Position numbers and translations under genes: made by a program. A stretch of 64,000 bases of DNA from Octopus vulgaris (lineage: Eukaryota). The DNA lies in the NCBI GenBank assembly GCA_951406725.2, contig OX597840.1:1054001-1118000 (forward strand), given 5' to 3'. The notes under the pieces are model-generated. The model worked only from the letters and a program-made list of their open reading frames with translations. It was not told the DNA's origin and searched no databases. Shown here piece after piece: positions 12,843 to 63,747 of this stretch (its first letter is position 1; every line of letters begins with the position of its first letter).

Positions 12843-13153
12843 TTAGAGTATCTACGAGATACCGCCATGCTGAAAATAACAGCTATGATCTGACTCTAAA
12901 ACCAAATTAAGGGTTCATATAGCACTCGGAGAAAGGACAAAAAGACAAAATAAAACTAGTCTTTTCTCCGTGTACTATATATAGACTTAAGGTAGTTTTA
13001 GAATCAGATCATGACCGCTATTTTCAGCATGGCGGTATCTCGTAGATACCCTAATTTATAATTTTAATAACAATTATTACCTTTGAAGGTTATTATTTCC
13101 ATGCAGGCCACTAGATAAGATCGTTATTGTATTTTAAATTAACGATCTTGTCC

Positions 13154-13156
<3 letters not shown>
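12841..13156. mobile_element. Fold-back short element (GGCCACT group) with ~90-bp inverted arms
   Basis: 12843-12935 is a diverged reverse complement of 12963-13056; GCAGGCCACTAG resembles a motif in the 18.8, 19.0, 19.4 and 62.2 kb elements. Confidence 0.6.
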
Positions 13157-13184
<28 letters not shown>

Positions 13185-13248
13185 AAGCATACAGCCATTC
13201 ACCTATATACACATACAGACGCATACACACATCCACACTCAGTTATAC

Positions 13249-13282
<34 letters not shown>

Positions 13283-13284
<2 letters not shown>

Positions 13285-13513
13285 CGGAGTAAACACATAA
13301 ATGTGAAGCAAGGGGGTAAAAAGAGTACTCAAATACCAGTGGTAGAGTTATATGCTTTATTTAAAGCAGCAGAAAATTCAACAAAACCTGTTACTCTGAG
13401 TTTCACGTTGCCGTTCATCGGACAGTTTTTTCTAGCAAAAACTGTCCGATGAAGGGCAACGTGAAACTCAGAGTAACAGGTTTTGTTGAATTTTCTGCTG
13501 CTTTAAATAAAGT
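13283..13513. mobile_element. HHR element family B: two overlapping copies facing outwards in (TA)n
   Basis: Minus copy 13283-13431 and plus copy 13436-13513; same family at 58519-58668 and fragment at 15739-15784. Confidence 0.85.
13388..13425 (-). ncRNA. Type I hammerhead ribozyme (U4C core variant)
   Basis: CUGU-CCGAUGA-ACG(GCAA)CGU-GAAA-CUC(A)GAG-UA-ACAG; second copy on + at 13442-13479 with one stem II mismatch. Confidence 0.8.
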
Positions 13514-13895
13514 ATATATATATATATGTATGTATGTATATGTGTGTTTTTAAATATGTATGGATATATATCCATCAGTTTGGGAACAAAGAGCTAGCTA
13601 CTTGTTTATCTATCTACCTACCTACGTGCCTATCTATCTACCGACATACCAACCTACATACCTACCTACCTACCTACCTACCTACCTACCTACCTACCTA
13701 CCTACCTACCTACCTACCTACCTACATACATACATACATACCTACCTACCTACCTACCTACCTACATAACTACCTACCTACCTACCTGCCTCTCTCTCTA
13801 TATATATATATATATCTGTGTATCTATCTATCTACCTATATATCTATTTATCTGTCACTATGTATATATATCTCAAATCCAGTTTCTTTCTCCCG

Positions 13896-27028: not shown

Positions 27029-27069
<41 letters not shown>

Positions 27070-27212
27070 ATATAGAGGGCATTATACATACATGCCAGAG
27101 GCATTATACATACATGCCAAACGTTAAGAGGGACAATTAGTCATTTCTACCAAAAATATTACTAATCCCACCGAATGCAATTTTTCAAAGTAAGACATTT
27201 AAAAAATATAGA

Positions 27213-27254
27213 CCTGTATCACAGTGATTTCATACTTACGTACTCATCAGCAGG
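27213..27254 (-). ncRNA. Type I hammerhead ribozyme (family C)
   Basis: CCUG-CUGAUGA-GUAC(GUAA)GUAU-GAAA-UCAC(U)GUGA-UA-CAGG. Confidence 0.9.
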
Positions 27255-27799
27255 CCTGAATGCATTATAAATAAACAACGACCCTGCCCCGCTTAAGTCG
27301 ATCAGCTAACTGTTCAACATCAACGAAGCACATGGGTGAGTTTACATATATTACATCCTGTTAAATGGCAAACTTTTACGAATTGCATTTCGGGAGAGGA
27401 AAAGTTTTTTCGGAATAAAAATTTAGCAATTAAGGACAACTACTTAATAAGGAAAACTTACCAAGAAATTGTCAGGTAGATAGCGTAAAAACCTCATAAG
27501 AGAAAAAAATTTCGAAAATAATTATTTCTTATTGAACATATTAATTTATATATAGAGGGCATTATACATACATGCCAGAGGCATTATACATACATGCCAA
27601 ACGCTAAGAGGGACAATTAGTCATTTCTACCAAAAATATTACTAATCCCACCGAATGCAATTTTTCAAAGTAAGACATTTAAAAAATATTTAACAGGATG
27701 TAATATATGTAAACTCACCCATGTGCTTCGTTGATGTTGAACAGTTAGCTGATCGACTTAAGCGGGGCAGGGTCGTTGTTTATTTATAATGCATTCAGG

Positions 27800-27841
27800 C
27801 CTGCTGATGAGTACGTAAGTATGAAATCACTGTGATACAGG
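27800..27841 (+). ncRNA. Type I hammerhead ribozyme (family C)
   Basis: Identical motif with canonical CUGAUGA/GAAA core. Confidence 0.9.
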
Positions 27842-28279
27842 TCTATATTTTTTAAATGTCTTACTTTGAAAAATTGCATTCGGTGGGATTAGTAATATTT
27901 TTGGTAGAAATGACTAATTGTCCCTCTTAGCGTTTGGCATGTATGTATAATGCCTCTGGCATGTATGTATAATGCCCTCTCTATATAAATTAATATGTTC
28001 AATAAGAAATAATTATTTTCGAAATTTTTTTCTCTTATGAGGTTTTTACGCTATCTACCTGACAATTTCTTGGTAAGTTTTCCTTATTAAGTAGTTGTCC
28101 TCAATTGCTAAATTTTTATTCCGAAAAAACTTTTCCTCTCCCGAAATGCAATTCGTAAAAGTTTGCCATTTAACAGGATGTAATATATGTAAACTCACCC
28201 ATGTGCTTCGTTGATGTTGAACAGTTAGCTGATCGACTTAAGCGGGGCAGGGTCGTTGTTTATTCATAATGCATTCAGG

Positions 28280-28321
28280 CCTGCTGATGAGTACGTAAGT
28301 ATGAAATCACTGTGATACAGG
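28280..28321 (+). ncRNA. Type I hammerhead ribozyme (family C)
   Basis: Identical motif exactly 480 nt downstream of the previous copy. Confidence 0.9.
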
Positions 28322-28587
28322 TCTATATTTTTTAAATGTCTTACTTTGAAAAATTGCATTCGGTGGGATTAGTAATATTTTTGGTAGAAATGACTAATTG
28401 TCCCTCTTAGCGTTTGGCATGTATGTATAATGCCTCTGGCATGTATGTATAATGCCCTCTATATATAAATTAATATGTTCAATAAGAAATAATTATTTTC
28501 GAAATTTTTTTCTCTTATGAGGTTTTTACGCTATCTACCTGACTATTTCTTGGTAAGTTTTCTTTATTAAGTAGTTGTCCTTAATTG

Positions 28588-28620
<33 letters not shown>

Positions 28621-44289: not shown

Positions 44290-44697
44290 AAGGTACGTGA
44301 GATCCTATGCACACAAGATACCCTAAGATCTAATCTATTATTAATTAGGTTATTTTTATTTCTATACTTAAAACTTTCGTAAATATCTATACAACATACT
44401 TCGCATCTATATCGGCTATCATTGTATGGCTGAGCTCCCCATATTATATTCCATTTAAGGCTAAATTTACTATTACTATCCTTAAGTTTTTACTAGATAA
44501 TGATGTACTATAAGCTTTAAGTGTAAGTCTAAACCATAAAAGATGGTTATTAAGGCGCTTCTTCATATTAATCGAGTACCCGATGTAAGTAAAGTTACTA
44601 CTTTCATTCATCACTGTACATTTGTAAACAACATTTTGAGCTAAACAACGACCTAATAACGGGCATTGGGATCCTACCCTACAATTGTAGCTGGGGA
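44290..44697 (-). pseudogene. Naiad-type PLE GIY-YIG endonuclease remnant
   Basis: YNCRVGSQCPLLGRCLAQNVVYKC...YIGYS...RLNNH, frameshift, then LKWNIIWGAQPYNDSRYRCEVC. Confidence 0.85.
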
Positions 44698-44722
44698 TAT
44701 TATTATTATTATTATTATTATT

Positions 44723-45088
44723 TTGTTTTTTCCTTCTTTCTTCAAATTTTCCTCCATTTCTCGCCAAGTGTTTTCCGTACACCTAGGGCAGAGAAGCTCA
44801 TTGTATTCATTTAGGATTACACACGTAAATTCACAGGTAAAATATGTATTTAAAAAATTATTAAATAAAAAAATTCATGAATGGACGTTGTTTTCACAGC
44901 GATAATGCTCTTCTCAGTACATGGGTCGTTCCAGTTAACACGATTTTTTGCACTTCCTGTAGGGATGTTAAACCTGGTATCATTTTCAAATAGCTTTCAG
45001 TACCTTTTTATATCATTCATAGAGATCCTACAATCACTGGTACTGTAGTTGCCTTGAGATGCCACATTTTTTTTCAATTTCTATTAGG
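44723..45088 (-). mobile_element. R4/Dong 3' fragment, same family as 41.3 kb
   Basis: Reverse complement homology to 41400-41648; (TTA)n tail at 44700-44722. Confidence 0.8.
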
Positions 45089-56897: not shown

Positions 56898-56950
<53 letters not shown>

Positions 56951-56954
<4 letters not shown>

Positions 56955-57142
56955 TAATCCAAACATGAAAACACAAAGAGAAAACACAACAACACGAGGG
57001 CGTGGAACAAGTATAGTATTATTGGACGCTCAGTAATGAAGGGAAGACGGAGGGTTTAACGTTTCGAGCGGAGCTCTTCGTCAGAAACATGGGAAAAGGA
57101 AAGATCCGGAGAAAGGAAGACGGAGGAAAAAAATCGCCAACG

Positions 57143-58223: not shown

Positions 58224-58440
58224 TAGTTAATCCAAACAAGAAAACACGAACAAACAAAAACAAAACACAACAACGCGAGGACGTTGAACAAATAAAGTAT
58301 TATTGGACGCTCAGGAAAGAAGGGAAGAAGGAAGGTCTAACGTTTCGAGCGGAGTTCTTCGTCGGAAACATAGGAGAAGGAAAGATCCCGAGAAGGGAAG
58401 AAAGAGGAAAAAAAATCGCCAGCAGTACTCACGAGGTCAC
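58224..58440 (-). mobile_element. HHR element family A (CCGACGA core)
   Basis: Hammerhead motif at 58335-58369; homology to the 57.0 kb copy. Confidence 0.8.
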
Positions 58441-58518: not shown

Positions 58519-58521
<3 letters not shown>

Positions 58522-58668
58522 GGAGTAAACACATAAATGTGAAAAAGGTGGAAAAAGAGAGTACTCAAATACCAGTGGTGGAGTAATATGCTTTATTTAA
58601 AAACAGCAGAAATTCAACAAAACCTGTTACTCGGAGTTTCACGTTCCCGTTCGTCGGACAGTTTTGTT
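58519..58668 (-). mobile_element. HHR element family B with hammerhead at 58624-58661
   Basis: CUGU-CCGACGA-ACG(GGAA)CGU-GAAA-CUC(C)GAG-UA-ACAG. Confidence 0.85.
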
Positions 58669-58708
58669 AAAATTTCAAATATATATTATATATATATATA
58701 TATATATA

Positions 58709-61442: not shown

Positions 61443-61754
61443 TAGAAACTATTTCTAGATAATTTCTATTCGTTCCTCTATTGTCGTAAAAGTTTGGTAT
61501 ATACTCAAAAGTCTTCAAAAAATTTTTATCCTTTTTTTTCATCCATCTATTAGGGAGATAGGCTTATAGATTTTAGCGTCTGCTCTGCTTCCTCCTTTAA
61601 GGATGGGGCATATTATTCCCTCCTTATGGTCACAACATATCATCTGAACCTACAAGGAAGCTTACTAAATAGATGACTGTTCACTGCAATGTGCCAATTA
61701 GAGATTTGATTCTCTAACACACACACACACACGCACACATATGAATATATATAT

Positions 61755-61948
61755 CAGTAAAATAATATGTGATAATTGTTCAATAGCCAAGATAAAACTC
61801 TGAGTTGTAGATTTTCAACCTCGGCATCCGAAACTCAGAGTTCTATCTTAGCTATTGAATAATTGTCACATATTATTTTACAGATAAATTTCTTCTATTT
61901 ACATAATATTGAGGTCTCTTTCTTTCTTTTGTTATCTTACCGTTTTTA

Positions 61949-61953
<5 letters not shown>
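61755..61953. mobile_element. Short fold-back 3' end related to the 62.5-63.7 kb PLE family
   Basis: Half HHR CATCCGAAACTCAGAGTT; 3' end homologous to 62474-62600; inverted arm 61755-61806. Confidence 0.8.
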
Positions 61954-61987
<34 letters not shown>

Positions 61988-61990
<3 letters not shown>

Positions 61991-62172
61991 GGTCCCGGGT
62001 TGAGTCGGGGTTAACCACAGTAAATAAGGTACTCAATACATAGCAGAGTAAATTAATTTATTTTATACAAGGAGCTTCTAGAACTGCTTCATTCAAAAGA
62101 AATCATCCACCTAGCTTCCTGATGATTTCTTTTGAATGAAACAGTTCTAGAAGCTCCTTCTATAAAATAAAT
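61988..62172. mobile_element. HHR element family H, outward-facing pair; hammerhead at 62113-62155 (+)
   Basis: AGCUUC-CUGAUGA-UUUC(UUUU)GAAU-GAAA-CAG..UA-GAAGCU; stem III partly deleted relative to the 23.0 kb copy. Confidence 0.75.
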
Positions 62173-62378: not shown

Positions 62379-62475
<97 letters not shown>

Positions 62476-62862
62476 ATAAAACGGTAAGATAACAAAAGAA
62501 AGAAAGAGACCTCAATATTATGTAAATAGAGGAAATTTATCTATACAATATGTTACATTACTCGGTAGTCAAGATAAAACTCTGAGTTTCAGATGCCGAA
62601 GTGGAAATCCACAACACCATCTCTTCGGTTATCTGGCTATTTGAAAACGTTATGAAAAAATACCGTTAAATAAAGGGAAATTACTCTGTTATAACTCTGC
62701 TTGCCTGCGTACTTATACATCGCTCGCATTTTTCGTCATAAAAATTATATAAAAATACATAAAAAATATATAAAAATATATAAATTCTTCTTGGGACATA
62801 ACATAGAAAGCTTGTTCTATCTGTTTTCTTTAGGGGACCAAAAACGTAACAGAAACTTAGTC

Positions 62863-63390
62863 ACATGTTCAACTACCAATTTTGAAAACATAATCAAACA
62901 TAACATACAAGAAACACAAGAGGAAAACAGCTGTTCATGCAGGAATAAAGAATTGTGCCCGCTAAATGGAGCTTGCATGTCCAAGACCATCATATATGAA
63001 GCTACCGTAAACTCTATAACCACTAAAGACACCATTTCGACGAAGAAATACGTGGGCCTTACAGAGGGTAATTTCAAGGCCAGGTTCAATAACCACACTT
63101 TGAGCTTTAGGCACTGGAACAAAAGAAAAGCGACACAATTGTCTAATCATATTTGGTCTTTAAGAGATAAAGGTGTCGATTATAACATACAATGGAAGAT
63201 TTTGGCCAGATGTAAGCCCTATACTAACAGCAGCGGAAGGTGCGGTCTATGCGACATGGAGAGATGGCTTATCTGGAAAAGCAGCTTAGACCCTACTACA
63301 TGTCTAAATACAAGGACAGAGCTTTTCGGATCATGCCCACATGTGACTAAGTTTCTGTTACGTTTTTGGTCCCCTAAAGAAAACAGATAG
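62863..63390 (+). CDS. GIY-YIG endonuclease domain of PLE (5'-truncated, uninterrupted)
   Basis: CSCRNKELCPLNGAC..IIYEA...YVGLTEGNFKARFNNH..SFR...T.LS.HIW...W.I....PY.....CGLC..E...LN.RTELFGSCPH. Confidence 0.92.
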   Translation, partial: TCSTTNFENIIKHNIQETQEENSCSCRNKELCPLNGACMSKTIIYEATVNSITTKDTISTKKYVGLTEGNFKARFNNHTLSFRHWNKRKATQLSNHIWSLRDKGVDYNIQWKILARCKPYTNSSGRCGLCDMERWLIWKSSLDPTTCLNTRTELFGSCPHVTKFLLRFWSPKENR

Positions 63391-63583
63391 AACATGCTTT
63401 CTATGTTATGTCCCAAGAAGAATTTATATATTTTTATATATTTTTTATATATTTTTTATGTATTTTTATATAATTTTTATGACGAAAAATGCGAGCGATG
63501 TATAAGTACGCAGGCAAGCAGAGTTATAACAGAGTAATTTCCCTTTATTTAACGGTATTTTTTCATAACGTTTTCAAATAGCC

Positions 63584-63646
63584 AGATAACCGAAGAGATA
63601 GTGTTGTGGATTTCCACTTCGGCATCTGAAACTCAGAGTTTTATCT
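63584..63646 (+). ncRNA. Hammerhead ribozyme in PLE pseudo-LTR (U4C variant)
   Basis: AGAUAA-CCGAAGA-GAU...CAUCU-GAAA-CUC(A)GAG-UU-UUAUCU; 6-bp stem I; stem II register ambiguous by 1 nt. Confidence 0.72.
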
Positions 63647-63675
63647 TGACTACCGAGTAATGTAACATATTGTAT

Positions 63676-63747
<72 letters not shown>

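What the first reader, a model, noticed from the sequence alone, without database searches (positions are those of the whole stretch)
62474..63680. Candidate mobilising enzyme: Naiad-type PLE with intact GIY-YIG domain, HHR and TA target
Seen: an uninterrupted ~175-aa endonuclease region with CxC-x5-C-x4-C before the IYxA/YVG motifs, a 3' region with an HHR, a near-identical inverted duplicate, and (TA)n on both sides. Established: this cysteine-flanked GIY-YIG architecture marks Naiad/Chlamys PLEs. Inference: a recently active family whose endonuclease may nick (TA)n and mobilise the non-coding HHR elements in trans.
Basis: partly seen in the sequence, partly recalled or inferred. Interest (0 to 1): 0.72.

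Follow-up and report, generated by a model that had tools for sequence, protein, structure and literature searches.

The report
Truncated young Hydra-type Penelope insertion
This is a broken two-armed copy of a known kind of jumping gene (a Hydra-type Penelope-like retroelement, not a Naiad) that has lost its reverse transcriptase, and the two arms of its sister copies almost always end at two different fixed sites, likely because both cut DNA strands copy one RNA.

Summary
The sequence features are real; the classification is wrong. 62472-63679 is a two-armed insertion in (TA)n. The forward arm holds the last 173 of 708 codons (GIY-YIG endonuclease), the 3' UTR and a hammerhead-like motif; the inverted arm repeats the 3' end. 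This copy has no RT and no start codon ahead of its Cys motif, so it is not a mobilising enzyme. Thirteen intact 708-aa relatives place the endonuclease after the RT and carry RWK, DKT, CxCx5C and no CCHH: Hydra clade, not Naiad/Chlamys. The family is young (2,014 exact 3' ends), and 65 of 65 position-chosen ends abut (TA)n (control about 8%). Two-armed insertions carry one end with a 67-nt tail and one without (23 of 24 position-chosen pairs), and the arms share alleles. This fits twin priming at the two start sites shown in vitro for a lizard Penelope; the scan noted this rule before on other DNA (e1-9505445). The family's short hammerhead 'mini-elements' are its own truncations, stopping just 5' of the ribozyme. 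No sequence support for trans-mobilising other ribozyme elements. New member of a known kind.

The parts
62383..62471 (.). left (TA)n flank (target microsatellite)
   Evidence: sequence
62472..62868 (-). inverted arm: 3' end of the element (unit positions 2181-2589), ending at the long end L
   Evidence: blastn to the natural unit L063:1423-4011; arm alignment
62472..62538 (-). 67-nt tail, present on this arm only
62572..62634 (-). type I hammerhead-like motif, family allele (core CCGAAGA, stem III ACUC-A-GAGU)
   Evidence: layout compared by eye with Hydra hammerheads in File S2 of PMC8557442
62867..62868 (.). inversion junction with 2-nt overlap of the two arms
   Evidence: family junctions mostly overlap by 0-5 nt (17 of 24)
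62867..63679 (+). forward arm, 5'-truncated (unit positions 1709-2522), ending at the short end S without tail
   Evidence: 97.1% to L063 unit
62869..63390 (+). last 173 codons of the 708-aa RT-EN frame: CxCx5C linker (62932), GIY-YIG core (IIYEA 62989, YVG 63049), CxxC (63241), CxH (63334); no RT, no upstream ATG
   Evidence: all 17 invariant alignment columns are kept
63584..63646 (+). hammerhead-like motif of the forward arm, with a private G>A change in stem II; predicted cut after 63640
63680..63737 (.). right (TA)n flank
   Evidence: sequence

Best explanation
The locus is a 5'-truncated, RT-less, two-armed insertion of a young Hydra-clade Penelope-like element, likely made when the protein of an intact copy nicked both strands of a (TA)n tract and each strand primed reverse transcription of the same element RNA at a different fixed site. 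Shown here: the 2,589-nt unit with one 708-aa frame in the order RT then endonuclease; intact copies; (TA)n at the ends; two fixed 3' ends (S, and L = S plus a 67-nt tail); one L and one S per two-armed insertion; arms that share alleles; short overlaps at the junction. From the literature: a Poseidon-clade protein nicks and extends both strands of AT-rich DNA and starts at two internal RNA sites that bracket the tail (PMC11167929). Inferred: one strand primes at L and the other at S, both cDNAs stop early and are joined head to head through microhomology. This copy is a product and would not make a working enzyme.
For: Domain order and motifs. The predicted fold of the full protein (mean pLDDT 86.3) has a telomerase as its best PDB match (E 1.4e-9, TM 0.37). 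Hydra definition; the published octopus Hydra-1_Obim has a similar N-terminus by eye. Youth: 2,014 exact 49-nt 3' ends, reversed control 0; mean 0.57% difference among 12 near-full units. Target: 65 of 65 ends against 8.5% and 7.7% of control positions. L+S: 22 of 25 in the first set and 23 of 24 in a set chosen by position after the prediction was noted (binomial p 1.5e-6 against one half). Both exceptions have other causes. Arm alleles: 14 of 1,196 comparisons discordant against a mean of 18% in random re-pairings, and 13 substitutions private to both arms of one locus. In 13 of 54 pairs the S arm reaches further 5' while only the L arm has the tail, so neither arm can be a copy of the other.
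Against: No tree with labelled PLE clades was built, so Hydra membership rests on motifs and domain order. The re-pairing null mixes subfamilies, which inflates the contrast. Shared alleles fit one RNA, two RNAs from one source copy, or gene conversion between arms; 64 substitutions are private to one arm. Priming twice on one RNA needs strand displacement, which has not been shown. No empty target sites were compared, so (TA)n could partly be added or expanded after insertion. One of four near-full units compared in a tandem array differs from the others at 6 sites. Copies were picked by similarity or by an exact 49-nt match, which favours young copies. The RT has unusual motif changes (YKDD, GAG, FYAS where 27-28 of 28 homologues have YRDD, GAE, F/YYPS), and activity is untested.
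Confidence: 0.8

Rival explanations
1. Naiad/Chlamys element whose N-terminal endonuclease is preserved here and acts as the mobilising enzyme.
For: A Cys-rich motif precedes the GIY-YIG core, the target is (TA)n and the structure is inverted, all of which Naiads share; Naiads are reported from octopus.
Against: RT lies upstream of the endonuclease in one frame in 13 intact copies; no CX2-5CxxC or CCHH; DKT rather than DKA; a hammerhead-like motif is present; this copy has no RT or usable start.
Confidence: 0.02
2. Same Hydra-type element, but the L+S pattern arises after copying: both arms start at one site or come from two RNAs of one source, and the endonuclease or repair trims or moves the tail when the intermediate is resolved.
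For: [quoted passage not shown] The S end is itself TA-like and could be cut. Allele sharing does not separate one RNA from two RNAs of one source.
Against: In vitro start sites bracket the tail without any resolution step (PMC11167929). Trimming must hit exactly one arm almost every time. One locus has a tail-only partner arm (L103), as expected if L primes and stops early.
Confidence: 0.15
3. The inverted arm forms by fold-back (self-priming) of the first cDNA or an antisense template, as proposed for rotifer Penelopes.
For: PMC3846280 proposes self-priming from palindromes at inverted junctions. In 28 of 54 pairs the L arm reaches further 5', which fold-back allows; arm 5' ends are weakly correlated (Spearman 0.30, p 0.027).
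Against: In 13 of 54 pairs, including this locus, the S arm is longer yet lacks the tail that the other arm has.
Confidence: 0.06
4. The family's protein also carries unrelated non-coding hammerhead elements (retrozymes) in trans.
For: Retrozymes are argued to derive from PLEs (bioRxiv 10.64898/2026.07.22.740005, abstract and part 1); trans action of pLTRs is described (PMC3846280); a 480-bp tandem unit with a canonical hammerhead lies at 27062-28599.
Against: No sequence shared with that unit or with three other hammerhead elements of the window beyond one 19-nt match. The family's own short elements have differing junctions and are truncations. Other Hydra-like families in this genome are equally good candidates.
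Confidence: 0.1

Closest known systems
Hydra clade of C-terminal EN+ Penelope-like elements, including Hydra-1_Obim of Octopus bimaculoides (PMC8557442)
   Same: Single frame RT then GIY-YIG, under 3 kb, RWK, DKT, CxCx5C linker, no CCHH, CxxC and CxH, (TA)n targets, 3' hammerhead; stem III ACTC-A-GAGT-T matches Penelope-3_HM in File S2; N-terminus similar to Hydra-1_Obim by eye.
   Different: A distinct family: RT motif YKDD against YRDD, a different hammerhead from Hydra-1_oBim, U4C core where every listed Hydra hammerhead has CTGA, tail 67 nt against the usual 30-40.
Poseidon of Anolis carolinensis (PAc), the PLE studied in vitro (PMC11167929)
   Same: Two fixed 3' ends bracket a tail; AT-rich targets; hammerhead just upstream of the ends; head-to-tail units (147 exact junctions).
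   Different: Different clade; in PAc the frame starts inside the hammerhead, here 105 nt after L. The parts read do not report that the two sites are used one per strand (they see no strand difference in start sites).
Naiad and Chlamys (PMC8557442)
   Same: Pseudo-LTRs, inverted 5'-truncated copies, tail, microsatellite targets.
   Different: N-terminal endonuclease, CxC domain, insertion in fingers, mostly no canonical hammerhead; Naiad endonuclease has CX2-5CxxC and CCHH.
Minimal hammerheads of PLE pseudo-LTRs (PMC4209133)
   Same: Type I layout, long stem II, short near-palindromic stem III; pairs on opposite strands 100-700 bp apart were already noted.
   Different: Core has C at position 4, a variant said to lower activity in vitro but to suffice for a viroid in vivo (PMC3088659, passage).

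Membership tests
Naiad/Chlamys | GIY-YIG endonuclease N-terminal to RT | tested here: not met
   13 intact frames have RT first and the endonuclease last
Naiad | CX2-5CxxC motif before, and CCHH within, the GIY-YIG core | tested here: not met
   CxCx5Cx5C; 0 Cys between IIYEA and YVG
Naiad | DKG motif changed to DKA | tested here: not met
   SDKT in the intact frames
Naiad/Chlamys | Insertion in fingers domain | tested here: inconclusive
   No insertion relative to 28 homologues, but no Naiad reference was aligned
Naiad/Chlamys | Lack of canonical hammerhead | tested here: inconclusive
   A Hydra-type hammerhead layout is present but with a non-canonical U4C core; Rfam gives no hit
Hydra | C-terminal GIY-YIG in one frame with RT, element under 3 kb | tested here: met
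   2,589-nt unit, 708 aa
Hydra | RWK motif and DKT motif | tested here: met
   MRWK and SDKT in the 12 frames; related motifs in 28 of 28 homologues
Hydra | CxCX5C linker, CCHH absent, CxxC and CxH around the conserved E and N | tested here: met
   CSCRNKELC, CGLC, CPH in the window
Hydra | Insertion into (TA)n | tested here: met
   65 of 65 ends against about 8% of control positions
Hydra | Canonical hammerhead near the 3' end | tested here: inconclusive
   Position and stems fit File S2 examples, but the core is C4 in 3,518 exact matches against 87 with U4; cleavage untested
Hydra | Placement in the Hydra clade of an RT tree | not tested
   Labelled reference proteins were visible only as cut rows of the supplement and were not available to the tree tools
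Active autonomous copy | Complete RT-EN frame with upstream pseudo-LTR at this locus | tested here: not met
   Only codons 536-708 are present; first ATG lies after the Cys motif

The most novel reading that the evidence does not exclude
Penelope-type integration is an obligately asymmetric twin-priming reaction: one ribonucleoprotein holds a single RNA with two fixed start sites 67 nt apart and gives one site to each nicked strand of (TA)n. When the start sites of the upstream pseudo-LTR are used, both cDNAs run off the RNA's 5' end just before the ribozyme, which mass-produces 200-bp two-armed hammerhead mini-elements with no separate non-autonomous family. This family, with at least 13 intact frames and a U4C ribozyme core kept across several families, would be the first Hydra-clade system for testing this.
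Probability: 0.4. Interest if true: 0.6.

Novelty: new member of a known kind. Interest (0 to 1): 0.3.

Why it matters
The locus itself is an ordinary dead fragment. The family matters a little more. How Penelope-like elements make their inverted, tailed insertions is still open, and only two have been studied biochemically according to the papers read. A young family with intact frames, a simple (TA)n target and two sharply defined ends gives a direct test of twin priming. It also warns annotators that short two-armed hammerhead repeats in this genome can be truncations of a coding element.

Tried and rejected
Pfam: no hit for the window endonuclease or two intact proteins. PDB sequence search with the alignment profile: 5 weak prion-protein matches at E 0.04-0.13, taken as chance. 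Rfam: no hammerhead. A suspected shared insertion or intron between RT and endonuclease in several copies proved to be mostly a recurrent 1-nt loss in a C run, or small deletions. Exact repeat finding over the whole window was swamped by microsatellites. Expression: no RNA holder listed on record as RNA; four runs guessed to be RNA were laid as contigs and cannot show a start, an end, a circle or a level; one contig runs round the unit, which head-to-tail genomic copies would also give; no splice-like joint of note. No dimer prediction was obtained, so dimer formation of this protein is open. My first end classifier mis-typed short ends and crashed at the end; one search replaced it but still typed 3 ends as short that are tandem or long (L033, L042, L030; none among the outer ends of the inverted pairs); its tally was 76 of 86 ends at (TA)n. 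A clonal MITE was rejected because the short two-armed copies have differing junctions. Look-ups of earlier findings near this place and by sequence returned nothing.

Full report
Observation. The frame 62869-63390 gives 173 aa with CxCx5Cx5C, IIYEA, YVG, CxxC and CxH. The 3' region is repeated in inverted form (331 of 345 columns), and (TA)n lies on both sides. The copy has no RT, and its first in-frame ATG (62977) comes after the Cys motif. Pfam and Rfam give no hit on it.

The family. The window lies in a 2.8-Gb genome, probably an octopus; that is inferred from the likeness to Hydra-1_Obim and from other agents' notes, not determined. A search with the endonuclease DNA scored 40 of 1,865 candidates, at 98-99% identity apart from the window itself. 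Longer copies run upstream into an RT in the same frame. A search with the 5' end (42 matches from 40 scored of 488 candidates) led to 37 fetched regions, holding 12 unbroken RT-EN frames; with later loci the count is 13, all 708 aa. The unit is 2,589 nt: 105-nt 5' UTR, frame, 3' UTR, hammerhead-like motif at 2427-2489, short end S at 2522 and long end L at 2589. There are 2,014 exact 49-nt 3' ends and 147 exact head-to-tail junctions. Twelve near-full units differ by 0.57% on average. A protein search found 489 relatives at E<=1e-10 among 7,991 scored, the best at 52%. I aligned 28 of the 120 listed; all 17 invariant columns lie in the endonuclease and the window copy keeps them. The model (pLDDT 86.3) matches telomerase and other RT structures.

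Clade. PMC8557442 (read: parts 1-4 of 10, section 20, found passages, supplement parts 2 and 7 of 59; figures not seen, protein rows cut at about 400 letters) defines Naiad and Chlamys by an N-terminal endonuclease and notes that they mostly lack canonical hammerheads. It defines Hydra by a C-terminal endonuclease, RWK, DKT, CxCX5C, no CCHH, CxxC and CxH, size under 3 kb, (TA)n targets and hammerheads. This family meets the Hydra protein, size and target features. It is related to, but distinct from, Hydra-1_Obim by eye. No tree with labelled clades was built.

Target. Among ends chosen by position on contig 1, 65 of 65 (35 L, 30 S) are followed within 3 nt by at least (TA)3, against 8.5% of window positions and 7.7% of positions in 14 loci. 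Empty sites were not examined.

One tail per two-armed insertion. In the similarity-chosen loci, 22 of 25 two-armed insertions have one L and one S end; 2 were cut by the locus edge and 1 is L+L. That exception is a 1,494-bp, 100% identical palindrome that includes host flank. I noted the prediction and then classified 24 pairs taken from the first 100 listed matches. Of 27 opposed pairs there, two were already in the first set and one is a multi-unit array whose outer ends are L and S. Of the 24, 23 are L+S; the last is an L+S pair with a separate L copy beside it. Of 14 apparent singles (the first 14 listed), 5 were L+S pairs, 1 had a tail-only partner and 8 were one-armed (7 L, 1 S). The window is L (inverted arm) plus S (forward arm). 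Across 54 pairs, arms differ at 14 of 1,196 comparisons at segregating sites, against a mean of 18% (minimum 9.9%) in 300 re-pairings; 13 substitutions are shared by both arms and no other sampled locus, and 64 are in one arm only. The null mixes subfamilies and the set includes the palindromic exception. The L arm reaches further 5' in 28 pairs and the S arm in 13; in those 13 neither arm can be a copy of the other. Junction overlaps are 0-5 nt in 17 of 24.

Mechanism. PMC11167929 (read: parts 1-2 of 4; supplementary figures not seen) shows that a Poseidon protein nicks and extends both strands of AT-rich DNA, starts at two internal RNA sites that bracket the tail, does not need hammerhead cleavage, and is predicted to be a dimer. 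I infer that here one strand primes at L and the other at S on one RNA, or on RNAs of one source, and that the cut-short cDNAs join by microhomology. That paper saw no strand difference in start sites, which neither shows nor excludes one site per strand within a product. A tail on one arm only is already described in words (PMC3846280, 8 passages read; PMC8557442 Fig. 2 legend). Searches for Penelope-like with internal initiation, with pLTR/tail/inverted, with twin priming, and for octopus/Penelope/hammerhead (listings and abstracts, apart from the papers named) showed no count of this rule and no twin-priming model for PLEs; subscription journals are not covered. An earlier unreviewed note of this scan states the same rule on other DNA (e1-9505445); I saw it.

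Short hammerhead elements. Of 67 arm 5' ends in the position-chosen loci, 22 fall at unit positions 2395-2445, just before stem I, against 0-4 per 50-nt bin upstream and 1 downstream. Their junctions differ, so they are separate truncations. An RNA 5' end in the pseudo-LTR or an RT stall at the ribozyme would explain this; neither was tested. Of five other hammerhead elements in the window, only 61739-61990 resembles the unit (87%, a sister family).

The ribozyme. The layout matches Hydra hammerheads in File S2, but the core is CCGAWGA in 3,518 exact matches against CTGAAGA in 87. Nine of the 10 U4 loci examined belong to a sister family, and in 3 of the 10 the partner arm has C4, which suggests CpG decay. 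U4C is said to lower activity in vitro yet allow viroid infectivity (PMC3088659, 3 passages), and PLE hammerheads are weak in vitro (PMC4209133, parts 1-2 of 4). The hammerhead fold is not the minimum-energy fold: -13.0 against -17.1 kcal/mol for the family allele, and -7.7 against -12.4 for the forward arm, which has a private stem II change. Activity is unknown.

Verdict. A dead fragment of a young family of a described clade, already known from octopus. The label Naiad is wrong. The family statistics add support to a mechanism that published in vitro work already points to. Interest 0.3.

Noticed in passing
window 27062-28599: 480-bp non-coding unit in tandem and inverted copies, each with a canonical CUGAUGA hammerhead, flanked by TA-rich DNA: retrozyme-like; no similarity to this family.
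   Followed up: partly
window 13150-13560 and 58520-58690: Another family of hammerhead ends with the same C4 core; the copy near 13.4 kb is two-armed, both arms stop about 12 nt before the core and only one carries a tail.
   Followed up: partly
window 61739-61985: Short two-armed insertion of a sister family (87% to the unit), tail on one arm only, 500 bp from the finding.
   Followed up: partly
window 44444-44782 (-): A second, more decayed Hydra-type endonuclease fragment (CNC-x5-CPL; weak Pfam GIY-YIG hit, E 5.7e-4, below cut-off) of another family.
   Followed up: no
window 56950-57140 and 58230-58440: Related 3' ends of a further hammerhead-like family (CTGACGA core at 57084, - strand) next to TA or CA runs.
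   Followed up: no
window 62064-62164: Near-perfect 100-nt hairpin inside a TA-flanked element; only sub-threshold miRNA-family matches.
   Followed up: no
L100, L074, L101 (G000:C1:57208400-57226000): One insertion with at least four minus-strand and one plus-strand full units, outer ends L and S; three compared units are identical over about 2,450-2,500 nt and one differs at 6 sites. Fits repeated copying of one circular or tandem RNA.
   Followed up: partly
L063:1528-3651 and 12 other intact frames: RT motifs depart from the homologues: YKDD, GAG and FYAS against YRDD (28 of 28), GAE (27 of 28) and F/YYPS (28 of 28), in a family that is still young.
   Followed up: no
L056 (G000:C24:19246433-19251933): 1,494-bp perfect palindromic duplication that includes host flank: a genomic fold-back or an assembly artefact.
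   Followed up: partly
L036:1007-2128 (-): Fragment of another Hydra-type family (YRDD, C-terminal endonuclease) 3 kb from a copy of this one.
   Followed up: no
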